A DNA stretch of 64,000 bases, taken from the NCBI RefSeq assembly GCF_030013205.1, contig NZ_CP122648.1, one strand, 5' to 3'. Numbering within the stretch: position 1 is the first letter of the stretch; each line of letters opens with the position of its first letter. Position numbers and translations under genes: made by a program. This DNA comes from Escherichia coli. Its GTDB lineage: Bacteria; Pseudomonadota; Gammaproteobacteria; Enterobacterales; Enterobacteriaceae. Shown here one piece after another: positions 1,441-47,379 of this stretch. The notes under the pieces were generated by a model. That model was given only the letters and a program-made list of their open reading frames with translations, was not told where the DNA came from and made no database searches.

Positions 1441-1635
1441 TTTCCACTCCTTGTGGTGGCGAAAAAATATCACAAACTAGAATAGCGCCTTGTATGACAA
1501 TTCAGCGAGTGAATATTTTGAAAATTCAGACAATAAACTGAGCATTCTTTTTCTCTCTCTATCATGCTTATGGCAAACTACGGTTTTTGCACTATTTTCG
1601 CTGCCTCGTCGGGCAACAGAGGAAGAAAAATCCAT

Positions 1636-3933: not shown

Positions 3934-3943
3934 TGCTTTAGTA

Positions 3944-3974
3944 AGGGCGCGACGTTTGCGCCCTTTAAGTATTT
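3944..3974 (+). terminator. Rho-independent terminator downstream of bglX
   Basis: GC hairpin agggcgc-gacgttt-gcgccct followed by T-rich tract. Confidence 0.5.
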
Positions 3975-4081
3975 ATCTGATTCTGCAACTGAATCCGCCC
4001 AGACAGGCTAACCCTGTCATTATCAACTATGCTTTTCTCTTAATTAGCTGAAAACAACAGTAAAAGAATGAGGAAAGCATC

Positions 4082-4999: not shown

Positions 5000-5005
5000 T
5001 TTCCC

Positions 5006-6163
5006 GTGACTTATCTACGTATTAATCCTGTTCTGGCGCTGCTGCTGTTGCTGACGGCAATCGCAGCGGCGCTGCCGTTTATCAGTTACGCGCCTAATCG
5101 TTTAGTTTCGGGTGAGGGGCGTCATCTCTGGCAGCTGTGGCCGCAAACGATCTGGATGCTGGTGGGCGTTGGTTGCGCCTGGATGACAGCCTGTTTTATT
5201 CCCGCTAAAAAAGGCAGCATTTTTGCACTCATTCTGGCGCAATTCGTCTTCGTATTGCTGGTGTGGGGAGCAGGAAAGGCGGCGACACAACTGGCACAAA
5301 ATGGCAGTGCGCTGGCGCGTACCAGCCTCGGCAGTGGTTTCTGGCTGGCTGCGGCGCTGGCATTGCTGGCCTGTAGCGATGCCATCCGCCGAATCTCCAC
5401 GCATCCGCTGTGGCGCTGGTTGTTGCATATGCAGATTGCCATTATTCCGCTGTGGTTGCTGTACTCCGGCACGCTTAACGATCTCTCGCTAATGAAAGAA
5501 TACGCCAACCGTCGGGATGTGTTTGATGACGCGCTGGCGCAACATCTGACGTTGCTGTTTGGTGCGGTGCTGCCTGCGTTAGTGATTGGTGTGCCGCTGG
5601 GCGTCTGGTGCTACTTTTCCACTGCGCGGCAGGGGGCGATTTTTTCTCTGCTGAATGTCATTCAGACCGTGCCTTCGGTGGCGCTCTTTGGCCTGTTGAT
5701 TGCGCCGCTTGCCGCACTGGTTACGGCCTTTCCGTGGCTGGGTAAGCTCGGCATAGCAGGAACCGGAATGACACCCGCACTGATTGCGCTGGTGCTCTAT
5801 GCCTTGCTGCCGCTGGTGCGCGGCGTGGTAGTCGGCTTGAACCAGATCCCGCGCGATGTGCTGGAGAGCGCCAGAGCGATGGGCATGAGCGGGGCGCAGC
5901 GATTCCTGCATGTTCAGTTACCACTGGCGTTACCGGTATTTCTGCGTAGCCTGCGGGTGGTGATGGTGCAAACCGTCGGCATGGCGGTGATTGCGGCGTT
6001 AATCGGCGCAGGCGGTTTTGGTGCGCTGGTTTTCCAGGGGCTGCTAAGCAGTGCCATTGATTTAGTGTTGCTAGGGGTGATCCCGGTAATTGTTCTGGCG
6101 GTGCTGATCGATGCGCTGTTCGATTTGCTTATCGCACTGCTGAAGGTGAAACGTAATGATTGA
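5006..6163 (+). CDS. yehY: ABC transporter permease
   Basis: 385-aa polytopic membrane protein, GTG start; operon context. Confidence 0.85.
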
Positions 6164-7082
6164 ATTTAGCCATGTCAGCAAACTGTTCGGCATACAAAAA
6201 GCCGTTAACGATCTCAATCTCAATTTTCAGGAGGGGAGTTTTTCGGTGCTGATTGGTACATCAGGCTCCGGTAAATCCACCACTCTGAAAATGATTAACC
6301 GCCTGGTGGAGCATGACAGTGGCGTGATCCGCTTTGCCGGAGAAGAAATTCGCTCGCTGCCAGTGCTGGAGTTGCGCCGCCGGATGGGCTATGCCATTCA
6401 ATCTATTGGCCTGTTTCCCCACTGGAGCGTGGCGCAAAATATTGCCACCGTGCCGCAATTACAAAAATGGTCACGGGCGCGGATCGACGATCGTATCGAC
6501 GAATTAATGGCGCTACTGGGGCTGGAGCCAAATTTGCGTGAGCGTTATCCGCATCAGCTTTCCGGTGGTCAGCAGCAACGTGTGGGAGTGGCGCGCGCAC
6601 TGGCTGCCGATCCGCAAGTCTTACTGATGGATGAACCTTTTGGCGCGCTGGACCCGGTAACGCGCGGCGCGTTGCAACAAGAGATGACGCGCATTCACCG
6701 TTTGCTGGGGCGCACTATTGTGCTGGTCACTCATGATATTGATGAGGCGCTACGGCTGGCAGAACATCTGGTGTTGATGGATCACGGTGAAGTGGTGCAG
6801 CAGGGCAATCCGCTGACGATGCTGACTCGTCCGGCGAATGATTTTGTCCGCCAGTTTTTTGGGCATAGTGAACTGGGTGTCCGCCTGCTTTCGTTACGTA
6901 GCGTGGCGGATTACGTGCGTCGCGAAGAACGGGCAGAAGGTGAGGCGCTGGCAGAAGAGATGACGCTACGCGATGCGCTCTCCCTGTTTGTCGCGCGGGG
7001 ATGTGAAGTGCTGCCGGTGGTGAACACGCAGGGCGAGCCTTGCGGCACGCTGCATTTTCAGGATCTGCTGGTGGAGGCGTAA
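6156..7082 (+). CDS. yehX: ABC transporter ATP-binding protein
   Basis: Walker [10 protein letters not shown] and ABC signature LSGGQQQR in translation; overlaps yehY stop. Confidence 0.9.
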
Positions 7083-7965: not shown

Positions 7966-8697
7966 TTAAATGCCGAGTGGGAAAATATCATGGCCTTGTT
8001 CCTGCCAACTGGTGAGTTGCTGCTGTTGGGCGGAGGTTCGATTTTCACCGCACCACACCAGCAATGTACGGCCTTCGAACAGTTCAGGGCGTAGTTGATT
8101 GAGCGAGTGGGCGAGGACATCAATGCGCCATCCTTGTTGACTGGCAATCCAGCCCTCCAGCCACAGACGGGTGGTATCGTGAATATTCCAGCCAACCACC
8201 AGCGCATCTTTACCCTGTTTTTTACGTGCCGAAGCCAGGCAAATGGCGATGTAGTTGATCAGTACGCCGTCGAGGATCGCCAGCAGCGCCTGGAGGGTCG
8301 GTTGTTGGCACTGAAGTCGTCGGCGCAGAGGAATAAACAGATGCGTGGTGAGTGTCTGGGCGGGGTAATCCTGACCGCGCTCTTTGATCCACGTTCGCAG
8401 GCTATGCAGATTGCCGCTTTGCAGGTAAGTCAGTAATGTTTCTTGCTGATCGCGCCAGCCGTTCTGCACATCAACATTTTCATTACTGAGCAGCATTTTT
8501 ACTTTGCTGACCTGCACGCCGTTGTCGATCCAGCGTTTGATCTCGCGGATCCGGTCAATATCGGCATCATTGAACAGCCGATGACCGCCGTCTGTCCGTT
8601 GCGGTTTCAGCAATCCGTAACGCCTCTGCCACGCGCGTAACGTGACAGGGTTAATATCACAAAGCAACGCCACTTCACCAATTGTGTAAAGCGCCAT
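7966..8697 (-). CDS. mlrA: MerR-family transcriptional regulator (curli regulator)
   Basis: 243 aa; N-terminal MerR HTH MALYTIGEVALLCDINPVTLRAWQRRYGLLKPQRTDGGHRLF. Confidence 0.85.
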   Translation of the reverse strand: MALYTIGEVALLCDINPVTLRAWQRRYGLLKPQRTDGGHRLFNDADIDRIREIKRWIDNGVQVSKVKMLLSNENVDVQNGWRDQQETLLTYLQSGNLHSLRTWIKERGQDYPAQTLTTHLFIPLRRRLQCQQPTLQALLAILDGVLINYIAICLASARKKQGKDALVVGWNIHDTTRLWLEGWIASQQGWRIDVLAHSLNQLRPELFEGRTLLVWCGENRTSAQQQQLTSWQEQGHDIFPLGI

Positions 8698-8918
8698 CGT
8701 CTCACCCTTGCTCGCGAGGTCCCGGTTTAACTTTAGACGCAGTTTTGCGAACCAGGTAGTTTTGCCCGTTTTTTGTGCATCTATAGGGTGATTTTATTTT
8801 TGCCAGGCGATTTTGAGTGATCGTACTCACGAATTCTCATTTTTCTGCAAGAGTTCAAAGAAAGTTAAACGCAGGCAATGTATGTTACGCGTTTTAAAGG
8901 GAAGTGTGGTTTGCGGGT

Positions 8919-10604
8919 ATGTACGATTTTAATCTGGTGTTGCTGCTGCTTCAGCAGATGTGCGTTTTTTTAGTCATTGCGTGGTTAATGAGTAAAACGC
9001 CATTATTCATACCGTTAATGCAGGTCACGGTTCGTCTGCCGCATAAATTTCTCTGCTACATCGTCTTTTCCATCTTCTGCATCATGGGCACCTGGTTTGG
9101 GTTGCACATTGACGATTCTATTGCCAATACCCGTGCGATAGGCGCGGTAATGGGCGGCTTGCTCGGCGGTCCGGTCGTCGGTGGGCTGGTTGGTCTGACC
9201 GGCGGGTTACATCGATATTCGATGGGGGGCATGACCGCGCTAAGTTGCATGATCTCGACCATCGTTGAAGGATTGCTCGGCGGCCTGGTACACAGCATCC
9301 TGATCCGTCGCGGGCGCACTGATAAAGTCTTTAACCCCATTACCGCCGGTGCCGTCACGTTCGTCGCTGAAATGGTGCAAATGTTGATCATCCTGGCGAT
9401 CGCCCGACCTTATGAAGATGCGGTGCGTCTGGTGAGTAATATTGCTGCGCCAATGATGGTTACCAATACCGTCGGCGCGGCGCTGTTTATGCGTATATTG
9501 CTCGATAAACGCGCGATGTTTGAAAAATACACTTCGGCTTTTTCTGCCACTGCGCTAAAAGTGGCTGCCTCGACGGAAGGCATTTTGCGCCAGGGGTTTA
9601 ACGAAGTTAACAGCATGAAAGTGGCACAGGTGCTGTATCAGGAGCTGGATATTGGTGCAGTCGCGATTACCGATCGAGAGAAATTGCTGGCCTTTACCGG
9701 AATTGGTGACGATCACCATTTACCCGGCAAACCGATTTCTTCGACTTACACCTTAAAAGCGATTGAAACCGGTGAAGTGGTCTACGCTGATGGCAACGAA
9801 GTACCTTATCGTTGCTCTTTGCATCCGCAATGCAAACTGGGGTCGACGCTGGTAATTCCGTTGCGTGGTGAAAATCAGCGGGTGATGGGCACCATCAAAT
9901 TGTATGAAGCCAAAAACCGTTTATTCAGTTCAATCAACCGCACGCTGGGCGAGGGGATTGCGCAACTGCTTTCGGCGCAGATCCTCGCCGGGCAATATGA
10001 GCGGCAAAAAGCGATGCTCACCCAGTCAGAGATCAAACTGCTTCACGCCCAGGTGAACCCCCATTTTTTGTTTAATGCGCTTAACACCATTAAAGCGGTG
10101 ATCCGCCGCGACAGCGAACAGGCCAGCCAGCTGGTCCAGTATCTTTCCACTTTTTTCCGCAAAAACTTAAAGCGGCCTTCGGAGTTTGTTACTCTCGCAG
10201 ACGAAATTGAACATGTGAACGCTTATCTGCAAATTGAAAAGGCGCGCTTCCAGTCGCGGTTGCAGGTCAACATTGCTATTCCGCAAGAATTATCCCAGCA
10301 GCAATTGCCCGCGTTTACCCTGCAACCGATAGTGGAAAACGCCATTAAACATGGGACATCACAACTGCTCGATACAGGGCGAGTGGCAATCAGCGCCCGA
10401 CGTGAGGGGCAACATTTGATGCTGGAGATCGAAGACAATGCCGGTTTGTATCAACCGGTAACCAATGCCAGTGGGCTGGGGATGAATCTGGTGGATAAGC
10501 GTTTACGTGAACGGTTTGGCGATGACTATGGGATAAGCGTCGCCTGTGAGCCTGATAGTTACACCCGAATAACGTTACGACTACCATGGAGGGACGAGGC
10601 ATGA
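8919..10604 (+). CDS. btsS: Sensor histidine kinase (LytS-type)
   Basis: ORF 8904..10604; ATG at 8919 gives 561 aa; N-terminal membrane domain, GAF-like region and HATPase C-terminus. Confidence 0.85.
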
Positions 10605-11320
10605 TTAAAGTCTTAATTGTCGATGATGAACCGTTAGCACGGGAGAACCTGCGCGTATTTTTGCAGGAGCAGAGCGATATTGAAATTGTTGGAGAGTGTT
10701 CAAACGCCGTGGAAGGGATCGGCGCGGTGCATAAACTGCGCCCGGATGTGCTGTTTCTTGATATCCAGATGCCGCGCATCAGTGGTCTGGAAATGGTGGG
10801 AATGCTCGACCCGGAACATCGTCCGTATATCGTTTTTCTCACCGCGTTTGACGAATACGCTATTAAAGCCTTTGAAGAACATGCCTTTGATTATCTGCTG
10901 AAGCCAATTGACGAAGCGCGACTGGAGAAAACGCTGGCGCGATTGCGTCTGGAGCGCAGCAAGCAGGATGTTTCGCTGTTACCGGAAAATCAACAGGCGC
11001 TGAAATTTATCCCTTGTACGGGGCATAGTCGGATTTATTTGCTGCAAATGAAAGATGTGGCATTTGTCAGCAGTCGGATGAGCGGTGTCTACGTTACCAG
11101 TCACGAAGGGAAAGAGGGCTTTACCGAATTGACATTACGTACCCTGGAAAGTCGTACACCACTACTGCGCTGCCATCGTCAGTATCTGGTTAACCTCGCG
11201 CATTTACAGGAGATTCGTCTGGAAGATAACGGCCAGGCCGAGTTGATTTTGCGTAATGGCTTAACCGTGCCGGTCAGCCGCCGTTATCTGAAAAGCTTAA
11301 AAGAGGCGATTGGCCTGTAA
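10601..11320 (+). CDS. btsR: LytTR-family response regulator
   Basis: [17 protein letters not shown] receiver domain plus LytTR C-terminus; ATGA overlap with btsS stop. Confidence 0.85.
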
Positions 11321-11366
11321 AAGACTGCTAAAATGGCTTTTTGCCTCATCAACACCTGAAGGCCTC

Positions 11367-11837
11367 ATGCTAAGTAACGATATTCTGCGCAGCGTGCGCT
11401 ACATTTTGAAAGCCAATAATAATGACCTGGTGCGTATTCTGGCGCTGGGTAATGTCGAAGCCACCGCGGAACAGATCGCCGTCTGGCTACGTAAAGAAGA
11501 CGAAGAGGGTTTTCAGCGTTGTCCGGACATTGTTTTGTCTTCCTTCCTCAATGGCCTGATTTATGAAAAACGCGGCAAGGATGAGTCTGCTCCGGCACTG
11601 GAGCCGGAACGTCGCATTAATAACAACATCGTGCTGAAAAAATTACGCATCGCGTTTTCGCTGAAAACCGATGACATTCTGGCGATCCTTACCGAACAGC
11701 AGTTCCGCGTTTCGATGCCGGAAATTACGGCGATGATGCGTGCACCGGATCATAAAAACTTCCGCGAATGCGGCGATCAATTTTTACGTTATTTTCTGCG
11801 TGGACTGGCAGCGCGCCAGCATGTGAAGAAAAGCTAA
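11367..11837 (+). CDS. yehS: Conserved protein of unknown function (DUF1456-like)
   Basis: ORF 11310..11837; ATG at 11367 gives 156 aa (MLSNDILRSVRYILK). Confidence 0.7.
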   Translation: MLSNDILRSVRYILKANNNDLVRILALGNVEATAEQIAVWLRKEDEEGFQRCPDIVLSSFLNGLIYEKRGKDESAPALEPERRINNNIVLKKLRIAFSLKTDDILAILTEQQFRVSMPEITAMMRAPDHKNFRECGDQFLRYFLRGLAARQHVKKS

Positions 11838-11846
11838 GACGGGTAT

Positions 11847-11871
11847 GGCGGCCATGCGAAACATGGCCGCC
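11847..11871. terminator. Perfect palindrome between convergent yehS and yehR (possible bidirectional terminator)
   Basis: ggcggccatg-cgaaa-catggccgcc hairpin; no strong T-run so confidence is low. Confidence 0.3.
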
Positions 11872-11877
11872 GACAGA

Positions 11878-38359: not shown

Positions 38360-38437
38360 CAAACGACTCGGGGTGCCCTTCTGCGTGAAGGCTGAGAAAT
38401 ACCCGTATCACCTGATCTGGATAATGCCAGCGTAGGG
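38360..38437. repeat. attL: 78-bp copy of thiM TPP-riboswitch sequence (left junction of inserted element)
   Basis: Perfect 78-bp identity to 47250..47327; sequence to its left is native rcnR-thiM intergenic DNA, sequence to its right is element DNA. Confidence 0.75.
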
Positions 38438-38520
38438 GGCCAAAATAGTCTTGAAAATTATGTGGTTGTATCTCTTTTTGACCATAAATCATGCTGTTAA
38501 GGTACAAAAAGGGGTCGTTT

Positions 38521-39828
38521 ATGAGGTCAAGAACTCTCCCATACACATTTCAGCGAAACGGTAATTACTATCTACAAATCCGGCTTTCGGATGGTCGGAT
38601 ATACAAAAAATCACTTTTTACTGACAGTTATCGCGAAGCATCGGCGTTGATGATTGGCCTTACTCCGCACATTCCTTTCGTTAAATCACTCGCTACTCCG
38701 TTGCCGCAATTTAATAAGTTTGTTTCAAACTTGATCGCTTCGTCACGTAACGTAATGATTCCGTTGCCACTCCCTCAGCAATTGAACAATATTTCTAAAG
38801 AAGTTTTGCAGCTTCAACCACCAGCCAAACCGGAAAAGGTGCTAACACTTGCTGATGCGTGGGCTATGTACAAGGAGGAAAGAGGTCGAAATTGGACAAA
38901 ATCGATCTCAATGGCAAATGAGCGTTATATGGAGGTATTGCTTGTTGTCTTGGGAAAAGAAACAGACGTAACGGCAATCACCAAACAAGATATTAAGCGA
39001 GTAATGGAAACTGTCGAAAACTTACCAAAGCGTGTAGTGCAACCGTATAGGTCAATGACTATTCAGCAACTAATCGAATGTGATGATGTGCTGCCAGAGG
39101 ATTTAGTTGGTGCTGAGGCTGTACATAAGCACCTTAAAATCTACAAATCGTTATTCAAAACATTTCTGACTGAAAACAAAGATATTCTATCTAAGTCTCC
39201 GACTGATGGAATAGTAGCGGCACCATCCAAAGCTAGGTTTGGTGCATACAGTGCAGCAGAAATGAAAAAATTTGTAGGATGGGCACTAAAGCAGCCTGAT
39301 GGATGGCAGAAGTGGATCACTTTGTTGTTGGCGTACACAGGAGCCAGAAGAGGTGAGATTGCTAAACTGGAGAAGTCGCAGATCAAATTTGATGAAGATA
39401 GCCAGCGGCACTATCTTCTGATCGCGGAAAGAAGGCTGGGTAAAACTGAGAATGCTACAAGACAGGTAGTGATTCATCCCAAACTGATTGAGTGGGGGTT
39501 TCTGGATTTTGTTAACCGCCAATGGAAAGAGAAAATCTTTTCGGAAGTCTCAGGTCGAAATATGTCAAAGATAGGTAAAGTTCTTTCAGATGTTCGTGAT
39601 CAGCTTGATATTCCTTATCTTGATGATTATGGGCAGCGGCGCTTGGTGCATAGTTTCCGGCATACTATGATTTCTACTTGTTTAGCTGGTTGGGTGAGTA
39701 ATTTGGCGCATCTGCAACAGGTGGTAGGTCATGAGAAAAGCGGTTTAGGGATTACCAGACGCTATTTGCACTCTTTTCCTTTACGTTCAATTTGTTACGT
39801 GATTGATGGTTTGGACTGGTTAAATTGA
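38521..39828 (+). CDS. Tyrosine-type site-specific integrase
   Basis: ORF 38491..39828; RBS AAGGGG before ATG 38521; catalytic-region motifs ARRGEI, HSFRHT, and terminal RRYLHS tyrosine. Confidence 0.85.
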   Translation: MRSRTLPYTFQRNGNYYLQIRLSDGRIYKKSLFTDSYREASALMIGLTPHIPFVKSLATPLPQFNKFVSNLIASSRNVMIPLPLPQQLNNISKEVLQLQPPAKPEKVLTLADAWAMYKEERGRNWTKSISMANERYMEVLLVVLGKETDVTAITKQDIKRVMETVENLPKRVVQPYRSMTIQQLIECDDVLPEDLVGAEAVHKHLKIYKSLFKTFLTENKDILSKSPTDGIVAAPSKARFGAYSAAEMKKFVGWALKQPDGWQKWITLLLAYTGARRGEIAKLEKSQIKFDEDSQRHYLLIAERRLGKTENATRQVVIHPKLIEWGFLDFVNRQWKEKIFSEVSGRNMSKIGKVLSDVRDQLDIPYLDDYGQRRLVHSFRHTMISTCLAGWVSNLAHLQQVVGHEKSGLGITRRYLHSFPLRSICYVIDGLDWLN

Positions 39829-39869
39829 TGTGAGCCTCGTGAGAAAGGGAATAAATAGAGAAAATCAAG

Positions 39870-39897
39870 TTGTTACCTCATTGGCAGGGGATATAAT
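39870..39897 (+). promoter_or_regulatory. Candidate sigma70 promoter for the nuclease gene
   Basis: -35 TTGTTA (39870-39875), 16-bp spacer, perfect -10 TATAAT (39892-39897), about 30 nt upstream of the ATG. Confidence 0.4.
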
Positions 39898-39927
39898 GAC
39901 CATATTGTCATCTTGAGGAACAAAAGT

Positions 39928-41499
39928 ATGGTTGCTCGTTCTAACCTTGTAAATTTAGATGCACTGATTAAGCGTGCTGATTTAGGTTTAAAGATCCAAG
40001 ATAACTCTTCATTTGAAACGCTAAACAGTATTCCTGCAAGAGAATTGAAATCAGGAAGTGGAATTGCTGCGCTTCTGAGAAAACCAGATTTCCAGCGTGA
40101 AACAAATCATTGGGGGCCTGAGCAGGTTGTATCGCTTCTCGAATGCTACATCAATGGTGATTTGATACCTTCCGTTATTCTTTGGCGGTCTTCAACCCAT
40201 CTTTTTGTGATCGATGGTGGTCATCGTTTAAGTGCGTTACGTGCTTGGGTTGAAGATGATTATGGCGACGGTCATATATCCCATCAACTTTTTGGGCATG
40301 ATATTCCTCGTGAACAACGCCGCGCTGCAGATAGAACGAGAAAGCTTGTGAAGGAGAGGGTCGGTAGCTGGGAATATTATCAGAAGTTGCTTGCCGATGA
40401 TGCTTCATTGACCGAGGAACAGCAGAGAAGAATCAGCGTATTAACATCTCGTGGAATCTCAGTCCAATGGGTAGTGGGTGATGTAGATAAGGCAGAAACT
40501 TCATTTTTTAACATCAATATGAAGGGAACTCCTCTTGATGCTATCGAAGAGATGCTTCTAAAAAATCGCAAGAAAAGTATTCCGATAGCAACCCGAGCAA
40601 TTATTCGTGCCGGTAGAGGTCATCGCTATTGGTCGGGGTTTGATCAGAGCATTGCCCAGCAACTTGAAGATAAATCTGCAAAGCTGCATCGTTTGCTGTT
40701 CGAACCTGAAGTTGATCGCCCTATTAAAACTCTTGATCTTCCATTAGGCGGTTCTAGGGGGGTCAGGACAGCGATCCAAGTTTTGAAAGATTTCTTACTG
40801 ATCACTGATTGCAACCAGAATGGTGTTTTGAAAAAAATCGAAGCCTACCCTGATGATGCGTCGGGTGCTGATACGTTAAGAATCCTTTCCAAAGCCACAT
40901 CATTAAGCAATAGAATTACAGGCAATGGCGATGGTAGCTTGGGGCTTCATCCAGCGATTTATTTTTATGGTCCGACTGGAATCCACTCAACGCCAATGTT
41001 TCTAGGAACTGTGCTACTGGTGGCAAAACAACTCTCTAACAATAATGGTCAATTCTTTAAAGACTTCACAACAATCAGATCTAGGCTTGAGAGAATAATG
41101 ATCGAATTTAAGGACTTGATCGCAATGATAGTACAAAAACCAGGTAGTAATGTCCGAGTGGCTCGCTACTGTGATTTTTTAAATGCGGTGATCAAATCAC
41201 TCAAGCAGGGAGAGAATATTGATGAGAGTAAGCTTATCGAGCTGGCCGAATTGGAGGGGAGAATACTCTCTGGAGATTTTAAGAGAACATCAGCAAAAAT
41301 CAGCGATGAACAAAAAAGTAAGGTGTTCATTGACGTGGCTCTGCGCAACGCTTTGAAATGTCCGATTTGCCAAGGTTACCTTGATACTGAAAAGTCAGTT
41401 TCTTATGATCATATCGTACGTGTCCGTGAGGGAGGAGATGGTAATTCTGACAATGTACAGTTGACACACCCTTACTGTAACCAGTCAGTGAAGTGTTAA
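39928..41499 (+). CDS. DUF262/DGQHR (ParB-like) domain + C-terminal HNH endonuclease fusion; candidate defence nuclease
   Basis: N-terminus FQRETNHW ... FVIDGGHRLSALRAW (QR/DGQ(Q/H)R-like ParB-fold motifs); C-terminus CPICQGYLDTEKSVSYDHIVRVREGGDGNSDNVQLTHPYCNQ (HNH His-Me finger). 523 aa from ATG 39928. Confidence 0.7.
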   Translation: MVARSNLVNLDALIKRADLGLKIQDNSSFETLNSIPARELKSGSGIAALLRKPDFQRETNHWGPEQVVSLLECYINGDLIPSVILWRSSTHLFVIDGGHRLSALRAWVEDDYGDGHISHQLFGHDIPREQRRAADRTRKLVKERVGSWEYYQKLLADDASLTEEQQRRISVLTSRGISVQWVVGDVDKAETSFFNINMKGTPLDAIEEMLLKNRKKSIPIATRAIIRAGRGHRYWSGFDQSIAQQLEDKSAKLHRLLFEPEVDRPIKTLDLPLGGSRGVRTAIQVLKDFLLITDCNQNGVLKKIEAYPDDASGADTLRILSKATSLSNRITGNGDGSLGLHPAIYFYGPTGIHSTPMFLGTVLLVAKQLSNNNGQFFKDFTTIRSRLERIMIEFKDLIAMIVQKPGSNVRVARYCDFLNAVIKSLKQGENIDESKLIELAELEGRILSGDFKRTSAKISDEQKSKVFIDVALRNALKCPICQGYLDTEKSVSYDHIVRVREGGDGNSDNVQLTHPYCNQSVKC

Positions 41500-41887
41500 A
41501 ATCACGTTTCACTTTTCGTTGTCATTTGTATCGAACGTTTTTGAGAAAGGGCAGGATTGCGAGCGAGTTACCAGCGTAAACAGATAAATACTGTTTTCGT
41601 AAGCCCACTGTCGCCGCTTTCCGCTCTGCAATTTTTGCTTGTCGGGGGGCTAATTGTGGCTTTGCTTGCCATAACATTAAAAGTCAGTAATATACTGAAA
41701 ATTAATACAATACTTTTCATATATCCCATTGAATATTCAGTTCATTGCCAAATAGCAAGCGGAGCACTCTCTCTTTAACGTTGTAGTAACTTAGTTGAAC
41801 AATTTTATAATATAATTTGTCTAAGTTGGTTGATGTATCAAAGCCTTTTTCTGAAGAATGAATTGGCGTGATTACTCACGCCAGATT

Positions 41888-42235
41888 TTAAATTTCAGAA
41901 CATAGGCTAAGCGTATAGACAGCAGTTTGCCCATCATTGTTAGTCGGTCTCATAACGAAAACAGGCTGACTCCCATTATCAATGTATGTGACTGCAACCC
42001 CTCCATCAGGTGTGGCATACATTTTTGCGATGCTTTTTTGACCTATAAAATCAAGTCTCCAAGTCTTACCACCAAGATGTATTGTCATTTTTTTATCTTG
42101 TATATCAAAAGTTGAATCTACAGAAACTTTCTGACTTCCCGAGTCAATATGACCTTCCTGTATTGCTTTACAGGAAAAGGTTGTGGCGTGGCCCATCACT
42201 GGAATTAACAAAGCGGCAAATACTAGTTTTTTCAT
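41888..42235 (-). CDS. Small secreted protein of unknown function (115 aa)
   Basis: RBS GGGAGA; MKKLVFAALLIPVMGHATTFSC signal peptide; no recognisable family. Confidence 0.5.
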   Translation of the reverse strand: MKKLVFAALLIPVMGHATTFSCKAIQEGHIDSGSQKVSVDSTFDIQDKKMTIHLGGKTWRLDFIGQKSIAKMYATPDGGVAVTYIDNGSQPVFVMRPTNNDGQTAVYTLSLCSEI

Positions 42236-42345
42236 TTGTCTCCCTTGATGTGTCAAATGGATGGTGATGCTAATAATACATGATTGATTCAAAATGTCAC
42301 GATTAGTGCGTGGTTAATTGGTGCGTCAAATTGCATCTTTGTGCC

Positions 42346-42810
42346 ATGCGAAAGAATCTGAGATACCTTTTTGGACAACGAGTAAAAGAGTTCCGTATAG
42401 CTATTGGCTTAAGCCAAGAGGCCTTTGCAGATCGGTGTGGTTTTGCTCGTAGTTATATGAGTCGAATTGAGCGTGGTTGCTCTAATGCATCTCTTGATGC
42501 AATTGAGGTTCTGGCTGACGCTTTGCGTATTGAGCCTTGGCAGTTACTAGCTTCTGATTCAAGGAAAACTGATGATCAGGAGGTACTTGTTCCTTATGCT
42601 GCAGATGGGTCGTGTTTTCATCCAGGATTGGCAAGTACTCGCGATGGTTCGTTTAGAGTAGGGGAAAAATCAGCCCAGAAACGTTTCAGTTCGTTCAATG
42701 ACGCTCTCGAATACCTTCGTGGAATGGAAACCGCGAAGTGGCGTAGGCCTAATGCTAGTGGTAATTGGGGAATTGTATCTGCGGTTAAATGGGATCGACT
42801 GAATCAATAA
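42346..42810 (+). CDS. XRE-family HTH regulator with C-terminal extension
   Basis: LRYLFGQRVKEFRIAIGLSQEAFADRCGFARSYMSRIERG HTH; start could also be the GTG at 42310; divergent from secreted-protein gene. Confidence 0.65.
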   Translation: MRKNLRYLFGQRVKEFRIAIGLSQEAFADRCGFARSYMSRIERGCSNASLDAIEVLADALRIEPWQLLASDSRKTDDQEVLVPYAADGSCFHPGLASTRDGSFRVGEKSAQKRFSSFNDALEYLRGMETAKWRRPNASGNWGIVSAVKWDRLNQ

Positions 42811-42976
42811 GATATCAGTAATTTTCGGGCCACTCCACAAGGCAATAAGTGGCTTAGTGGTGATTATCGAAGGGGAATACAAGCGAGCACCTAGGCACCA
42901 TTGCAAGAACCGCTCAACGCTGAGATCAGCAAGCCCCGATTTCTGCCGACCGTCCCTGTCAAATATCAAGGAGGCA

Positions 42977-43516
42977 TTACGCCTCCTCTTCTTCCTTCTT
43001 AATTCGCTGTACCGTCGAAGGAGCAACATTAAAGATCTCGGCGGTTTTACGCACTGACACGCCATCAGAAAGGGCTTTCTTTATACCTTCTCGATCCACT
43101 GCCTTACCTTTACCACGCTTTCTAGGATTGACGGCTTGCGCTTCTCGTTTACGTTCTAACATCAGTTCACGTTCACACGTTGCCACTGCCGACAACATAG
43201 TAAGCATCATTTTTCCCATCGCGCTTGTAATGTCTGCAATGATCCCTTCTTTGTGAAAGCGAACAATTACACCACGATTATTAAGTTGTTCCACTAAGGC
43301 AAGAATGTCTAAGGTGTTACGCCCTAAACGATCAAGAGAGTGGACGTGTAAGGTGTCGCCTTCTCTCAGATAGGCTAAACACGCTTGTAAGCCTGGGCGG
43401 TTAGTGTCTTTACCAGACAGCTTATCTTCAAAGACTTTGTCGAGAGTTAGTCCTGCAAGCTGGCGATCAGTATTTTGATCTACAGTGCTCACACGCTTAT
43501 AGCCGATATTGCTCAT
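42977..43516 (-). CDS. Small serine recombinase (resolvase/invertase family)
   Basis: MSNIGYKRVSTVDQNTDRQ with catalytic Ser; C-terminal HTH; RBS AAGGGGA. Confidence 0.8.
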   Translation of the reverse strand: MSNIGYKRVSTVDQNTDRQLAGLTLDKVFEDKLSGKDTNRPGLQACLAYLREGDTLHVHSLDRLGRNTLDILALVEQLNNRGVIVRFHKEGIIADITSAMGKMMLTMLSAVATCERELMLERKREAQAVNPRKRGKGKAVDREGIKKALSDGVSVRKTAEIFNVAPSTVQRIKKEEEEA

Positions 43517-43565
43517 AAAATCCCCTTGATGTATCGATTTGGCACCACTCCAATGCAAATGAGTG

Positions 43566-43653
43566 TGTTGTATTCATTTGGTCTGTTTCAAGCCTTATGG
43601 ATACGGAATATTACACGATTTAGCTGTATTCATTTGGTATGCCTAATGGATAC
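43566..43653. promoter_or_regulatory. Two res-like palindromic sites upstream of the serine recombinase
   Basis: tgtattcatttggtctgtttcaagccttatggatacgg and tgtattcatttggtatgcctaatggatacgc; each has imperfect inverted half-sites GTATTCAT / ATGGATAC. Confidence 0.4.
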
Positions 43654-43785
43654 GCAGGGGGATAGATTAAATGGTGTTCTGTTTATACAGGTTTATTTGT
43701 TAGATCAACAAGTTGGCATTTCTAAACAGATGTTTGAACGTTGCCAAATGCCTTGACAACACAAGAAAATGGCTTGCTATGAACG

Positions 43786-44100
43786 CATTACACGAAATAA
43801 GGCTATAAAAACAAAATAAATTTTAAAATTTGCACAAAAACGAGAAAACTCGTTCGACAAATAATAGATTGGTTTTTAATCGACAATTTCTGACAATTTC
43901 TGATGGTGCTCTGTAAACCGCATTACACAAGGCTTTGCGAAAGTGATGTAAAAGTGAAGAAAGTTAACATTGCACTTTGAAGCCATTTTTCATTGGATTT
44001 TTTAGTAGGGAATTACACAGGGAATAGAGAGCATTATTCTATGATTTACACAGGGAATATAGGGGATTATGGCACACACATAGAAAGGCATTACACAGAG
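43786..44100. repeat. Iteron-like direct repeats, family A (TTACACAGGGAAT-type, 5 copies)
   Basis: cattacac(g/a) at 43786 and 43921, aattacacagggaat at 44011, tttacacagggaat at 44046, cattacacagag at 44089. Confidence 0.5.
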
Positions 44101-44163
44101 TGAGTGCTATGTGATGATTGGTAGTAACGGTAGGTCACTGTGAGCTACCCCCCACAGAATTCT

Positions 44164-44340
44164 GTTACCCCTATCAAGTCTAACAGGGGTTTATAAAGAA
44201 TAATAAACCGATGATACCCCTATCAATATTGATACCCCTATTAGCTTTGATATGACTACCCCTATCAAAACTGATACCCGATAAGAATAAGTTAATAAGA
44301 ATAATTAAATAATATTCTTTATATCTATATATATGATCTT
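44164..44340. repeat. Iteron cluster, family B (GATACCCCTATCAA x5) plus AT-rich unwinding-like tract: candidate oriV
   Basis: tacccctat at 44166, 44215, 44233, 44257 and tacccgat at 44275 (spacing 18-49 bp), followed by about 60 bp of nearly pure A/T (44281-44340). Confidence 0.55.
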
Positions 44341-45503
44341 TTTGCCTTCCGGCGTTAGCTTCACTCTCTGGCAAGCAGCCTTACTCCGCTATCTTTGGGC
44401 TTCGTGGCTGGCCCGTTCCGCTCACACCGAAAGCAAAGCGTTACTCTTCTTCGTGTAACTATCGTTGGCGGTAACGCCACACGAAGAAATACTATTGCGC
44501 TGTGCGCAGTAAGAGTAATCACCTAACCAATCACCTGATTGCTTACGTGTTAACTCTCTCTAACTCTTAATTACCCTCCTACATTTAATAACTCTATTAT
44601 TCTCTGTAGTTGTGTAATTACTCGAAGAGAGAGCGGCTAAAGCTCAATTACACTCTGCTTTCCTCGTGTAATTTCACTAAGCCTCAATACAATTTCACTT
44701 CCTACATTCTGTAGTCGTGTAATAGTTTTCGGTGGGGAAAAGCCAGAGGCGACACCGAAAGAAAATTCTGATCTTATTAATCTTATCTATCTTAGTTAAT
44801 CTTCTTACTTACTTTATCTACTTTATTATTAATAATAGCTTTATAAGCTCTCTGTGTAGCTCTCTGACGCAAGAAACAGCATTCAGGAAGGGAATCACCT
44901 TAGAAAAGTGTTCTTTGCGTCATAATGTGTTTTATGAAGGATTCAGAGGTGTTTCATAACACAAGGTATAGAGGATATTTTAGTTAATTAAAAATAAGGG
45001 GGCTAAATGCTTCTCTAACAGCATTAAGCAGGGTAGAGAATGGAAATGCATTGCCTACGTATATATAAACTCACTACAAGGCTTTACAGAGCGTTTTATA
45101 AAGTAACTAATCTAAGAACTCTCTGTTTTATATCTATCATCATCTTTCCATCATCTAACAAATACAAAATAAGCCCCTTAAATAAGCCTCTGGCGAGCTA
45201 AACAGCCATTACATAAGGGAATGTATTTCTTTTATCAAAACTTCGTTAGAACGCGTTTTAGAGCGTTTTATACAATAAGGAAGAATAGGACCGTCCGCAA
45301 GAGCACGAATTGCTAAGAAAGAATGTAAACGCATGAAAAATATCAGATTTTTTATGAAAATATATTGACAAATGTTTCTTTATATGTAATAATAGGTATT
45401 AGAGAGACAGAAAAACATTCTTCTCTAAATAATCAAAATCAATGCACTTTGAAGCCGTCAGGCTTGCAAGGTGTTTTTCTTTTAACTGAATAAGGAGTTT
45501 TTT

Positions 45504-45692
45504 ATGAAATGGTTTACACCGGAACACGTCGTAGAGGCATTTAAAAAAGGTGAGCTAACACGACATCAAGTAGTAATGAATCGTAATATGGCAAGGAGTC
45601 GAGGTTATCCAGAGCGTGAAAAATGTTTCGATGCAGCACTAAAAATTATTGATAAATTAAGAAAAAATGAAAAAGGATCTGAAACAGAGTAA
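45504..45692 (+). CDS. Hypothetical small protein (62 aa)
   Basis: Strong RBS AAGGAG 7 nt upstream of ATG; basic small protein, no family recognised. Confidence 0.45.
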   Translation: MKWFTPEHVVEAFKKGELTRHQVVMNRNMARSRGYPEREKCFDAALKIIDKLRKNEKGSETE

Positions 45693-45711
45693 AGAAGAGA
45701 AGGAGAAAACT

Positions 45712-45882
45712 ATGAGCGAAACTACAGAAAAGAAAAGACAACCACGCACTTGCTTTCATATTCCTGATGAAGTATTTCAGGTGTTGTTTAAAGAAGCCAG
45801 AAGTAAACGTATCACTGTTACAGATTACATTCTTGATATGTTGAAAAGAGAGGCTGAAACACTCTCAAATAAAAGCAAGTGA
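45712..45882 (+). CDS. Ribbon-helix-helix (CopG/Arc-like) DNA-binding protein
   Basis: RBS AGGAG; PRTCFHIPDEVFQVLFKEARSKRITVTDYILDMLKRE fits beta-alpha-alpha RHH pattern. Confidence 0.5.
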   Translation: MSETTEKKRQPRTCFHIPDEVFQVLFKEARSKRITVTDYILDMLKREAETLSNKSK

Positions 45883-45936
45883 TTTTTATCACCATAGTAG
45901 CGCCGTAGAGCGTGATTACATCAAGGAGCTTTTTTA

Positions 45937-46599
45937 ATGATTAAACATACAAAACCTTTCTTAGGAATAGATTATGACTTACTAGCAATCACTTCCCTAG
46001 TGATTAACGGCAAAACAAAAGAAGTAAAACTACATCATAAGATCATTTATTCTTATTTGTTAAGTTTATCTGGCACATATCAAAAGGTAACACCATCTTT
46101 GAAAGGTATTGGTGAGCGGTTAGGAGTAGGTACAGATCAGACGGTACGCCGTCATATCAAAGATCTTGTTTCTTTTGGATGGTTGAAGATTGAGGAAAGG
46201 GCAGGTAGCACAAATGCTTATATTGTCCTTCCTTATGAACAAGAAGCCCAGACACAACAAGAAGCTACCGTTAAAGCTGTTCAGGAACAGCTTCCCCCTA
46301 CGGAAGATAATAAAGAGTTTTCTTTTGATGTTCTTGATGATTGGGATGCGCCTTTACCTTGGGAAATGGAAGAAACGCCATCTGATGAAAAGGTAGCTAA
46401 TGATAATGAGGAGGATGTGTTAGAGAATTTTGCCTCTCTTATCATCCAGGAGAAACACACAAGAACAGGAGGGGCATCATTTATAGAATTTGCAACATCG
46501 TTAGCCTGTAAGCACAGGATAAAGCTACCAAATGGTATTGAGGCATATTTTGCTAAGAAACATCCCAAAGTATATGAAGACTTTGATATTCCATTTTAA
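45937..46599 (+). CDS. Winged-helix protein, candidate replication initiator
   Basis: RBS AAGGAG; wHTH-like SLKGIGERLGVGTDQTVRRHIKDLVSFGWLKIEE; acidic C-terminal half; sits next to iteron region. Confidence 0.5.
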   Translation: MIKHTKPFLGIDYDLLAITSLVINGKTKEVKLHHKIIYSYLLSLSGTYQKVTPSLKGIGERLGVGTDQTVRRHIKDLVSFGWLKIEERAGSTNAYIVLPYEQEAQTQQEATVKAVQEQLPPTEDNKEFSFDVLDDWDAPLPWEMEETPSDEKVANDNEEDVLENFASLIIQEKHTRTGGASFIEFATSLACKHRIKLPNGIEAYFAKKHPKVYEDFDIPF

Positions 46600-46794
46600 T
46601 AAGGAGGGTTATGATTCAATATTTAGTAAAAAATAAAGTAGAATTCATCTATTCCACTCTCTAAAAATCTATCTGTGTAATATAAAATGAAAACATTATG
46701 GTATTAGCTATGTATTGGTTATTGTTCTTTCTGGCCTTAGAAACATATGCAAGTAAGTCTGGAAAACGAAAGTAATATATTGATGATTTGTTTG

Positions 46795-47052
46795 TTATAA
46801 CTTCGTGGTGTCAAGTCCAGCAGTTTTGAGTCGCTCGGTAAGATTTCTCATTTTGCTGAACTCTGTACCAAAGCTGGCTTTAAGTCCTACACCTTCGCAA
46901 AACTCTTTTGCCGTGACGTTTTTCAGATGGTCAACATATTTGGTCATCTGGAGGTGCATTTCCATCGTTTGGCTATTTCGTGATGCGCTGCTAATGGCTT
47001 GCTTAATGTTCTCGTAGATCTGGGTTCTGTCATTGTTTATCCCACCTATCAA
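46795..47052 (-). CDS. Hypothetical small protein (85 aa) at element right end
   Basis: Minus-strand ORF adjacent to attR; function unknown (could be an excision/regulatory factor). Confidence 0.35.
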   Translation of the reverse strand: MIGGINNDRTQIYENIKQAISSASRNSQTMEMHLQMTKYVDHLKNVTAKEFCEGVGLKASFGTEFSKMRNLTERLKTAGLDTTKL

Positions 47053-47245
47053 ATTTAGAAAAATAATATTAATTAGCTAATTAATATAATCAATGGTTTT
47101 CACCATCTGAATGATAGCCGTTAATTGTTTCTTTTTCATTCCTTCTATGGGGTACAAAATGGGGTACACAGAGAAGAAGCAATTAATGGAGGCGAGCTTG
47201 CATCTGCAAGCCACTTCCCCTAAGCTGGCACAAAATATAGAGATT

Positions 47246-47379
47246 CAACCAAACGACTCGGGGTGCCCTTCTGCGTGAAGGCTGAGAAATACCCGTATCA
47301 CCTGATCTGGATAATGCCAGCGTAGGGAAGTCACGGACCACCAGGTCATTGCTTCTTCACGTTATGGCAGGAGCAAACT
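47246..47379 (+). promoter_or_regulatory. TPP (thi-box) riboswitch controlling thiMD
   Basis: Contains the canonical thiM aptamer sequence CAAACGACTCGGGGTGCCCTTCTGCGTGAAGGCTGAGAAATACCCGTATCACCTGATCTGGATAATGCCAGCGTAGGGAAGTC and expression platform up to the SD (ggcaggag). Confidence 0.85.
47250..47327. repeat. attR: 78-bp direct repeat (native riboswitch copy adjoining thiM)
   Basis: Identical to 38360..38437; downstream sequence continues as native thiM leader. Confidence 0.75.

What the first reader, a model, noticed from the sequence alone, without database searches (positions are those of the whole stretch)
39870..41499. DUF262/DGQHR-like + HNH nuclease next to the integrase: candidate single-gene defence system
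The 523-aa protein pairs an N-terminal ParB/Srx-fold region (FQRETNHW and IDGGHRLSAL motifs, as in the DUF262 of GmrSD/BrxU/SspE or the DGQHR domain of DndB) with a classical C-terminal HNH finger (CPICQ...DHIVRV...N...HPYCN). Known GmrSD-type type IV restriction enzymes use a DUF1524 nuclease, so this ParB-fold + canonical HNH architecture looks like a distinct variant. It sits in the integrase-proximal cargo slot and has its own near-consensus promoter. No cognate methyltransferase or dnd/ssp genes are nearby, which fits a modification-dependent nuclease or a stand-alone system.
Basis: partly seen in the sequence, partly recalled or inferred. Interest (0 to 1): 0.85.

Follow-up and report, generated by a model that had tools for sequence, protein, structure and literature searches.

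The report
Uncharacterised ParB-fold plus HNH nuclease gene
A self-contained gene on a small island inserted into the thiM thiamine riboswitch encodes a strongly conserved, uncharacterised nuclease related to the GmrSD restriction enzymes; prophages and phage satellites carry it as cargo, so it is probably an anti-phage DNA nuclease, but nobody has tested it.

Summary
Window 39928-41499 (+) encodes a 523-aa protein with its own promoter-like site, Shine-Dalgarno sequence and terminator-like hairpin. Pfam finds GmrSD_N/DUF262 at residues 50-213 and an HNH finger at 478-520.

It belongs to a coherent, uncharacterised family. About 300 clusters at 50% identity match with E<1e-30, most of those listed being about 520 aa long. 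The NTPase motifs (QR, DG[AGS]HR, FxxxN) and the nuclease motifs (CxxC…DH…N…HxxCN) are invariant or nearly so. dN/dS is 0.05.

Across 37 loci no neighbour family recurs in more than five. The gene sits in accessory positions of P2-like prophages, a P4-like satellite, a Pf prophage and integrase islands, sometimes next to R-M systems. A 24%-identical relative lies near BREX.

Best reading: a single-gene, NTP-gated DNA nuclease that works like GmrSD, with a canonical HNH in place of DUF1524. I found no experimental report. Its target and any modification dependence are unknown. It is a new variant of a known kind, of moderate interest.

The parts
39870..39897 (+). Promoter-like site, TTGTTA-16 nt-TATAAT (10 of 12 positions)
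   Evidence: It is the best-scoring match upstream of the gene, but consensus matches are common in this region (9 found, 5.1 expected).
39915..39930 (+). Shine-Dalgarno GAGGA (39915-39919) and ATG start codon (39928-39930)
   Evidence: Sequence read. RefSeq uses the same start.
39928..41499 (+). CDS of 523 aa, the DUF262 (ParB/Srx fold) + helical domain + HNH nuclease (WP_021293132.1)
   Evidence: AlphaFold model with pLDDT 93.4 and pTM 0.91. dN/dS 0.05.
39943..39984 (+). Conserved N-terminal peptide (residues 6-19, NLVNLDALIKRADL)
   Evidence: L10, D11, A12 and R16 are conserved in at least 90% of 107 sequences. Its function is unknown.
40075..40566 (+). GmrSD_N/DUF262 ParB-fold NTPase-like domain (residues 50-213), with Q56-R57, D96-G97-G98-H99-R100 and F193…N197
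40567..41337 (+). Central all-helical domain (residues 214-470) with no Pfam match; R223, R384 and E388 invariant; conserved blocks RAIIRAGxGHxYW, LDLPLGG and SLGLHPAxYFY
   Evidence: It may correspond to the helical connector or DNA-binding ('ParBDB') region of other DUF262 proteins (PMC12065111). That is inference and was not tested.
41338..41496 (+). HNH beta-beta-alpha-metal nuclease finger (residues 471-523): C478xxC481, D494-H495, N509, H514xxC517-N518
   Evidence: Pfam HNH. The family profile hits Gme HNH nickase 4h9d (E 1.2e-4), a Cas9 HNH domain and a group II intron maturase HNH. The model shows strands 492-495 and 510-513 and helix 515-521.
41487..41513 (+). Terminator-like hairpin followed by a T run, overlapping the stop codon
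38491..39828 (+). Tyrosine integrase of the island (RefSeq start 38521), immediately upstream
   Evidence: It is shared with the DUF262-HNH gene as one module of about 89% nucleotide identity in Enterobacter elements.
38360..38437 (+). attL: a 78-bp direct repeat that is most of the thiM TPP riboswitch aptamer
47250..47327 (+). attR: an identical 78-bp direct repeat within the functional thiM TPP riboswitch
   Evidence: The reconstructed empty site is contiguous in 4727 of 5426 E. coli genomes.

Best explanation
The gene encodes a stand-alone, single-protein DNA endonuclease or nickase that works like the GmrSD/BrxU/SspE class. An N-terminal ParB/Srx-fold DUF262 domain binds and hydrolyses NTP and acts as sensor and switch. 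A conserved helical domain couples it to a C-terminal zinc-stabilised HNH (H-N-N type) nuclease that cuts DNA. Temperate phages, phage satellites and small integrative islands carry it as an independently expressed accessory gene, and it restricts incoming phage or other foreign DNA. Because it has no partner methyltransferase or immunity gene, self-DNA is most likely spared by requiring a feature absent from host DNA. A hypermodified base, as in type IV restriction, is the leading candidate.

Shown: the domains, the intact and invariant catalytic and NTPase motifs, purifying selection, single-gene organisation and mobile-element cargo contexts.
Inferred: nuclease and NTPase activity, the anti-phage role, and above all the nature of the trigger. 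I put modification dependence at roughly 0.35-0.4.
For: - Domains: GmrSD_N and HNH in the protein and in 102 and 103 of 107 relatives.
- Motifs: R57, D96, G97, H99, R100, F193, N197, C478, C481, H495, H514 and C517 are invariant in 107 of 107 sequences. Q56, D494, N509 and N518 are conserved in at least 97%.
- Selection: dN/dS 0.05.
- Expression unit: promoter-like site, Shine-Dalgarno sequence and terminator-like hairpin.
- Single gene: no neighbour family recurs in more than 5 of 37 loci.
- Prophage and satellite contexts: Burkholderia P2-like phage KL3, between the portal gene and an EcoRII-C/Vsr/Dcm R-M system. The edge of a Pf8 filamentous prophage. A Yersinia P4-like satellite, between ogr/delta and the integrase. 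A Vibrio P2-like prophage, beside a LlaJI-type R-M system. E. coli O103:H2, between gpD and ogr.
- Other contexts: next to HsdR, and as chromosomal singletons. A 24%-identical relative lies 3.5 kb from a BREX-1 locus on Acinetobacter plasmids.
- Distribution: sporadic, in 53 of 5426 complete E. coli genomes.
- Precedent: in characterised DUF262 nucleases, NTP hydrolysis gates a His-Me nuclease that defends against phage (PMC4619093, PMC10952713, PMC11662687, PMC12373910).
Against: - There are no experimental data for any member. I found no paper in the searchable library.
- No PADLOC model matched beyond weak partial hits: NsnA at 2e-5 over 60 residues and PDC-M55C at 0.016.
- The family is unusually conserved along its whole length. 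Identity is 56-65% between E. coli, Vibrio, Acinetobacter and a Verrucomicrobium (Persicirhabdus). Characterised GmrSD variants are reported to share very little sequence (PMC12373910). This fits a fixed target better than an arms race.
- Several relatives sit beside cytosine or Dam-like methyltransferases. The family probably does not attack ordinary m5C or m6A, and a different relationship to methylation cannot be excluded.
Confidence: 0.6

Rival explanations
1. It is an abortive-infection or toxic effector. The nuclease is held off by NTP binding or an autoinhibited conformation. A phage cue, such as a nucleotide-pool change, a phage protein or a replication intermediate, unleashes it on any DNA, host DNA included, rather than on modified DNA specifically.
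For: - There is no self/non-self marker gene nearby.
- COG1479/DUF262 proteins were grouped with the Abi family AbiU1 and proposed as cell-death modules (PMC3632139).
- The GmrSD-like protein EF_B0059 remains toxic in methylation-free E. coli (PMC11322646).
- SspE and DndI nick DNA without strict discrimination in vitro (PMC11662687).
- High conservation fits sensing of a constant cue.
Against: - No PADLOC Abi model was hit.
- The closest structural relatives are direct restriction nucleases.
- Nothing in the sequence points to a particular trigger.
- The gene is carried stably, with its own promoter-like site, in many genomes without an antitoxin.
Confidence: 0.17
2. It serves the mobile element itself, as a selfish homing-type HNH endonuclease or as a DNA-processing accessory for excision, replication or packaging of the island, prophage or satellite. 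It is not host defence.
For: - HNH genes in phages are often homing endonucleases or terminase accessories.
- In KL3-type phages the gene lies near the portal and terminase genes.
- Integrase plus this gene is the only module shared between the E. coli island and the Enterobacter satellite-like elements.
- The protein is strongly conserved across distant hosts.
Against: - It occupies at least three different accessory positions in P2-like phages: next to Q, between D and ogr, and between CI and the integrase.
- It also occurs as a chromosomal singleton with no mobile-element genes around it.
- At 523 aa with a conserved NTPase domain, it is unlike compact homing endonucleases.
- It has its own promoter-like site and terminator-like hairpin.
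Confidence: 0.1
3. It is the nuclease half of an R-M-like or modification-sensing system. Its partner, a methyltransferase or a phosphorothioate or other modification module, is encoded elsewhere, as with SspE or DndI, which depend on host PT modification.
For: - Methyltransferase genes are adjacent in 4 of the roughly 30 loci: KL3, Vibrio, L027 and L043.
- SspE and DndI are among the nearest structural neighbours.
Against: - Most loci, including this window, have no methyltransferase or dnd/ssp genes.
- No neighbour family is shared by more than 5 of 37 loci.
- The methyltransferases that do occur belong to complete R-M systems of their own.
Confidence: 0.06

Closest known systems
GmrSD-family type IV restriction enzymes (GmrSD, Eco94GmrSD, BrxU, HEC-06, TgvB, GrwA; DUF262 + DUF1524)
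   Same: - It is a single polypeptide with an N-terminal DUF262 ParB/Srx-fold domain carrying the QR, DGxxR and FxxxN motifs.
- A helical connector follows, then a C-terminal His-Me (beta-beta-alpha-metal) nuclease with a D-H…N…N catalytic set.
- It is encoded in mobile elements and defence neighbourhoods.
   Different: - The nuclease is PF01844 HNH with a CxxC…HxxC zinc finger. No DUF1524 was detected and there is no (E/D)HxxP motif.
- The NTPase motif is DG[AGS]HR, not DGQQR.
- The family profile does not detect BrxU, SspE or DndI sequences, and PADLOC gave only weak partial hits.
- The family is far more conserved than GmrSD variants are reported to be (PMC12373910).
- The substrate is unknown.
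SspE and DndI (phosphorothioate-sensing DUF262 + DUF1524 nickases)
   Different: There are no ssp or dnd genes in the island or in most related loci. The nuclease domain family differs.
DndB / DGQHR-domain proteins
   Same: The H-R ending of the signature pentapeptide (DGGHR against DGQHR), plus the QR and FxxxN motifs (motif definitions from PMC4619093).
   Different: There is no Pfam DndB hit and no dnd cluster. DndB is a regulator with no HNH domain.
Menshen NsnA (DUF262 sensor of the three-gene NsnABC system)
   Same: It is the only PADLOC hit better than E 0.01: E 2.2e-5 over residues 52-111, which is the DUF262 core.
   Different: The match is partial. No NsnB ATPase or NsnC effector genes are nearby. 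NsnA lacks a nuclease domain (PMC12065111).
McrA-type and other sensor-HNH type IV enzymes (McrA, ScoMcrA, VcaM4I and similar)
   Same: A PF01844-type HNH effector fused to an N-terminal DNA-sensing domain in a single protein (architecture recalled from the literature; not compared here).
   Different: The sensor here is a ParB-fold NTPase rather than an SRA, EVE or McrA-N reader domain. No sequence or structure match to these enzymes was seen.

Membership tests
GmrSD family (type IV restriction, DUF262 + DUF1524) | N-terminal DUF262/GmrSD_N ParB-Srx-fold domain | tested here: met
GmrSD family (type IV restriction, DUF262 + DUF1524) | QR, (I/V)DGQQR and FxxxN motifs | tested here: inconclusive
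   QR (Q56, R57) and FxxxN (F193, N197) are present and invariant or nearly so. The pentapeptide is DG[A/G/S]HR, never DGQQR, in 107 of 107 sequences. The D, G and R are kept but both Q are replaced.
GmrSD family (type IV restriction, DUF262 + DUF1524) | C-terminal DUF1524 (PF07510) nuclease with the (E/D)HxxP…N…N motif | tested here: not met
   No DUF1524 hit in the protein or in any of 107 relatives. PF01844 HNH is found instead. The motif is DHIV with a CxxC/HxxC zinc finger. Both domains belong to the His-Me finger superfamily (PMC4619093).
GmrSD family (type IV restriction, DUF262 + DUF1524) | Detectable sequence homology to characterised members | tested here: not met
   The family profile finds no BrxU, SspE or DndI chain at E<=10. 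PADLOC gave only weak NsnA and PDC-M55C hits at E<=1. No NCBIfam match reached its cut-off.
GmrSD family (type IV restriction, DUF262 + DUF1524) | NTP-stimulated cleavage of modified (5hmC, glucosyl-5hmC, m5C) DNA and phage restriction | not testable with these tools
   This needs plaque assays and in vitro nuclease and NTPase assays.
HNH endonuclease (PF01844, His-Me finger) | Beta-beta-alpha-metal fold with a catalytic His at the end of strand 1, a structural Asn, and a metal-binding His or Asn on the helix | tested here: met
   Pfam HNH E 2.9e-4, and as low as 3.7e-9 in relatives. Profile hits to 4h9d, a Cas9 HNH domain and a maturase HNH. The model shows strands 492-495 and 510-513 and helix 515-521. 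H495 is invariant; D494, N509 and N518 are at least 97% conserved.
DndB / DGQHR domain (PF14072, TIGR03187) | DGQHR pentapeptide, a DndB profile match and linkage to dndCDE | tested here: not met
   No DndB Pfam hit. No NCBIfam hit reached its cut-off. The motif is DG[AGS]HR. There are no dnd genes nearby.
Menshen (NsnABC) | NsnA followed by the NsnB ABC ATPase and the NsnC effector | tested here: not met
   Only a 60-residue partial NsnA match. The downstream genes are unrelated and on the opposite strand. No partner is conserved across 37 loci.
Single-gene anti-phage defence system (generic) | Sufficient alone to confer phage resistance | not testable with these tools
   Computation can show only that the gene is autonomous and sits in accessory or defence neighbourhoods.

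The most novel reading that the evidence does not exclude
This is the founding member of a distinct, widely transferred family of single-protein immune nucleases (ParB-fold NTPase, conserved helical domain, zinc-finger HNH). Its unusually strong conservation over the full length would reflect recognition of a constant feature that is not one of the cytosine hypermodifications targeted by GmrSD or BrxU. Candidates are another class of phage DNA modification, such as 7-deazaguanines or modified thymidines. Another is a DNA structure or end onto which a ParB-like NTP-gated clamp loads before nicking. That would give prophages and satellites of many bacterial lineages a common weapon against competing phages.
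Probability: 0.25. Interest if true: 0.65.

Novelty: new variant of a known kind. Interest (0 to 1): 0.45.

Why it matters
If it does confer defence, it adds a compact single-gene module of about 1.6 kb to the DUF262 restriction repertoire. It pairs the ParB-fold NTP switch with a different His-Me nuclease. It is common cargo in P2-like prophages and also occurs in a P4-like satellite, a Pf prophage and riboswitch-targeting islands across alpha-, beta- and gamma-Proteobacteria, Clostridia and Actinobacteria.

Its strong conservation makes it a good system for asking how a DUF262 domain senses DNA and gates a nuclease. It should also show whether its target differs from the cytosine modifications seen by GmrSD and BrxU.

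The gene is present in the widely used strain E. coli ATCC 8739, so it could affect which phages plate on that strain. That is untested.

It is not a new principle. The general DUF262-nuclease logic is established, and fusions to HNH were already noted computationally.

Tried and rejected
- **Sequence search of solved structures.** The single protein returned only an HNH match to a group II intron maturase. The 107-sequence profile also returned only HNH hits. This gave no handle on the N-terminal or central domains.
- **Foldseek against AFDB50.** It returned only uncharacterised family members, so there was no functional annotation to transfer.
- **Family libraries.** NCBIfam gave no family above its cut-off. 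PADLOC gave no known defence family. The PHROG family is of 'unknown function'.
- **Literature.** I searched the accession, DUF262+HNH, ParB+HNH+type IV, DGQHR+HNH, and hotspot+satellite+DUF262. No experimental study of a DUF262 + PF01844 protein turned up.
  - The supplementary tables of Rousset et al. 2022 list a lone 'DUF262' gene (WP_077697332) in a P4 hotspot. I could not retrieve that sequence to check whether it belongs to this family.
  - Maindola et al. 2014, on the ParB/Srx superfamily, is not held.
- **Conserved partner gene.** Rejected. All-against-all clustering of neighbours in 37 loci found none. The other island genes are a secreted protein, an XRE regulator, a DNA invertase and a replication initiator.
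- **Housekeeping protein.** Rejected. The gene is present in about 1% of E. coli genomes, within an insertion whose empty site is intact in 4727 of 5426 genomes.
- **DndB-like regulator.** Rejected. There is no DndB profile hit and there are no dnd genes.
- **Not done.** I did not scan genome contigs or metagenome contigs, because the contexts already collected answered the partner-gene question.
Full report
**1. The observation**

The window has an ORF at 39913/39928-41499 on the + strand. The ATG at 39928 follows a GAGGA (39915-19) by 8 nt. It is also the start RefSeq uses for WP_021293132.1, named 'GmrSD restriction endonuclease domain-containing protein', in E. coli ATCC 8739, whose sequence matches the query stretch (window 39870-41499) exactly.

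All quoted motifs are present. Pfam finds GmrSD_N/DUF262 (PF03235) at residues 50-213 with E 1.1e-11. It finds HNH (PF01844) at residues 478-520 with E 2.9e-4.

A promoter-like site, TTGTTA-16-TATAAT, lies at 39870-39897. A terminator-like hairpin with a T run lies at 41487-41513. The gene therefore looks like an autonomous transcription unit, although consensus scans alone are weak evidence.

**2. The island**

The gene lies 100 nt downstream of a tyrosine integrase gene (38491/38521-39828). Both sit in an 8.97-kb insertion bounded by perfect 78-bp direct repeats at 38360-38437 and 47250-47327. The repeats are most of the TPP riboswitch aptamer of the thiMD leader.

Joining the two flanks rebuilds an rcnR-riboswitch-thiM junction. 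That junction is contiguous in 4727 of 5426 complete E. coli genomes. The element is therefore an insertion into a riboswitch.

The rest of the island encodes:
- a small secreted protein;
- an XRE/C-protein-like regulator;
- a DNA invertase;
- a 1.7-kb gene-free stretch with iteron-like repeats;
- an O/DnaD-like replication initiator.

RefSeq annotates no methyltransferase and no dnd or ssp genes within about 12 kb.

**3. The family**

- **Size.** The word-indexed search found more than 2,900 clusters at 90% identity. Its best 120 are almost all 510-530 aa long and 56-97% identical to the query. The exhaustive search of 50%-identity representatives found 900 clusters with E<1e-3 and 308 with E<1e-30. 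Most of those listed are 510-560 aa long.
- **Hosts.** Named hosts include Enterobacter, Pantoea, Yersinia, Vibrio, Colwellia, Acinetobacter, Kushneria, Cellvibrio and a Verrucomicrobium, Persicirhabdus. AFDB50 adds alpha- and beta-proteobacteria, Clostridia and Actinobacteria, with full-length TM-scores of 0.85-0.97. All are annotated only as 'DUF262' or 'HNH' proteins.
- **Motifs in 107 diverse members.** Invariant residues are R57, D96, G97, H99, R100, F193, N197, R223, R384, E388, C478, C481, H495, H514 and C517. Q56, D494, N509 and N518 are at least 97% conserved. The signature is QR … DG[A/G/S]HR … FxxxN in the N-terminal domain and CxxC … DH … N … HxxCN in the nuclease.
- **Selection.** The E. 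coli and Enterobacter alleles differ at 11% of nucleotides but 3% of residues. dN/dS is 0.05 at dS 0.24. The gene is functional and strongly constrained.

**4. Structure**

An AlphaFold2 model built on the 107-sequence alignment is confident and compact, with pLDDT 93.4 and pTM 0.91. DGGHR sits at a strand-helix junction, the position described for DGQQR in DndI (PMC11662687). The C-terminus forms a beta-beta-alpha unit, with strands 492-495 and 510-513 and helix 515-521. D494-H495 lie at the end of strand 1, N509 lies just before strand 2, and N518 lies on the helix. This is the arrangement expected for an H-N-N type His-Me finger. C478, C481, H514 and C517 are placed to bind zinc.

- Foldseek finds no solved structure below E 1e-3.
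- The family profile matches only HNH domains among PDB sequences: Gme HNH nickase (1.2e-4), a Cas9 HNH domain and a group II intron maturase.
- The central helical domain, residues 214-470, has no Pfam match. It carries invariant residues and conserved blocks of its own.

The protein is therefore a distant structural relative of the GmrSD family in its N-terminal domain only. Its nuclease belongs to a different Pfam family, PF01844 rather than DUF1524.

**5. Genomic context elsewhere**

Clustering the neighbours of the gene in 37 loci found no protein family shared by more than five loci. The recurrent neighbours are phage structural genes, ogr, and the island's own integrase. The gene is a single-gene module.

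Locations:
- Burkholderia P2-like phage KL3, between the portal gene Q and an EcoRII-C/Vsr/Dcm R-M system.
- The edge of the Pf8 filamentous prophage, where it is annotated 'repressor C'.
- A Yersinia enterocolitica P4-like satellite, between ogr/delta and the integrase.
- A Vibrio P2-like prophage, between CI and a LlaJI-type R-M system plus integrase.
- An E. coli O103:H2 P2-like prophage, between gpD and ogr.
- Beside a type I HsdR gene.
- As chromosomal singletons next to uvrA/ssb or guaA.

In Enterobacter, the same integrase plus nuclease module heads a roughly 13-kb satellite-like element that carries a capsid gene and is integrated at the same riboswitch.

IMG/VR holds 25 loci, many close to a contig end. 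Their neighbours include integrases, Dam-like methyltransferases, P2 gpD and gpA, a CI repressor and a terminase.

A 24%-identical relative on Acinetobacter plasmids lies 3.5 kb from a BREX-1 locus. A figure legend in the KKP paper lists DUF262 and HNH among genes neighbouring a prophage defence module (PMC11341870).

In E. coli the family is sporadic, in 53 of 5426 genomes.

**6. Mechanism**

The best-supported reading is an NTP-gated DNA nuclease that works like GmrSD, BrxU and SspE. The ParB-fold DUF262 domain binds and hydrolyses NTP and senses DNA. The helical domain transmits the signal. The HNH finger nicks or cuts.

The precedent comes from characterised members. In those, mutating the DGQQR arginine or the nuclease histidine abolishes defence, and NTP hydrolysis licenses cleavage (PMC4619093, PMC10952713, PMC11662687, PMC12373910, bioRxiv 10.1101/2024.01.29.577857).

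- Shown here: intact motifs, fold, selection, autonomy and mobile-element cargo context.
- Inferred: the activities and the defence role (confidence about 0.6).
- Least certain: modification dependence (about 0.35-0.4). It is the simplest way for a lone nuclease to spare self-DNA. The co-resident Dcm- and Dam-type methyltransferases make ordinary m5C or m6A unlikely targets.

Rival readings are a triggered abortive-infection nuclease (0.17), a function selfish to the element, such as homing or DNA processing (0.10), and dependence on a modification system encoded elsewhere (0.06).

**7. Comparison with what is known**

Every characterised DUF262 nuclease I found in the literature pairs DUF262 with DUF1524, and the family is defined that way (PMC12707154, PMC11322646, PMC4619093).

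This protein passes the DUF262 test. It fails the DUF1524 test and the sequence-homology test. Its NTPase pentapeptide is a variant. So it should not be filed as a GmrSD family member, although it most likely works like one.

The distinction is modest. DUF1524 is itself a His-Me/HNH-type finger (PMC4619093). Makarova et al. had already noted that COG1479/DUF262 is 'often fused to' HNH, PD-(D/E)xK or HEPN nucleases (PMC3632139).

No PADLOC, NCBIfam or PHROG annotation assigns a function. I found no experimental paper. That is a limit of the held library, not proof that none exists.

**8. Verdict**

It is a new variant of a known kind. The most unusual feature is the family's very high full-length conservation and broad horizontal spread, which contrasts with the reported divergence of GmrSD variants. 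Interest is 0.45. It would be about 0.65 if the family proves to recognise a new kind of target.

Noticed in passing
window 38360-38437 and 47250-47327 (island 38360-47327): The 8.97-kb island is inserted in the TPP riboswitch of the thiMD leader and is flanked by perfect 78-bp repeats of the aptamer. The left aptamer copy keeps the native upstream DNA and now precedes the integrase gene. The right copy precedes thiM, whose upstream DNA is now island sequence. The integrase may therefore be under thiamine control and thiMD may depend on an island promoter; both are inference. The reconstructed empty site is contiguous in 4727 of 5426 E. coli genomes, so about 700 genomes have the site interrupted. 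Only 40 carry the near-identical copy of this gene, which suggests an integration hotspot with variable cargo.
   Followed up: partly
L016-L020 (Enterobacter cloacae complex and relatives), locus coordinates about 8400-21500: Elements of about 13 kb are integrated at the same TPP-riboswitch att site (96% identical). They share only the integrase plus DUF262-HNH module with the E. coli island (about 89% nucleotide identity, window 38839-41669). They then carry a lambda-E-like major capsid gene (Phage_cap_E), DUF6945 and a 716-731-aa protein. This could be a capsid-encoding phage satellite, with the E. coli island a different or decayed relative.
   Followed up: partly
window 43756-45500: A 1.7-kb stretch of low GC (about 0.38) has no annotated gene. 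It holds iteron-like direct repeats: four copies of TACCCCTATCAA at 44163-44279 and two 28-nt repeats at 44010-44070. It lies upstream of two small ORFs and an O/DnaD-like replication-initiator gene (45937-46599). It may be the island's replication origin or a regulatory region.
   Followed up: partly
L003 (Pseudomonas phage pf8_ST274-AUS411), 8523-10061: The Pf8 gene annotated 'putative repressor C protein' is a full-length homologue of the DUF262-HNH protein (38% identity, E 1e-101), so the annotation is probably wrong.
   Followed up: yes
L021 (E. coli O103:H2 str. 12009), 8866-10449: A second, divergent family member (WP_000146939.1, about 69% nucleotide identity over the conserved parts) lies between gpD and ogr in a P2-like prophage. 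It occurs in 13 complete E. coli genomes, including O145 strains.
   Followed up: partly
L002 (KL3) 3881-6836; L008 (Vibrio) 9830-14449; L027 7121-7921; L043 9712-10512: DNA methyltransferase genes lie next to the DUF262-HNH gene in 4 of about 30 loci: Dcm-type with Vsr in complete R-M systems, or Dam-like orphans. This may just reflect clustering of defence genes, but it bears on which modifications the nuclease tolerates.
   Followed up: no
L006/L007 (Yersinia), 1372-6437: In some Yersinia genomes the same integrase plus DUF262-HNH pair is followed by polymorphic-toxin and immunity cassettes (PT-VENN, Ntox33, Ntox50, TNT, Imm63) instead of P4-satellite genes. The island has a mosaic structure.
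   Followed up: no
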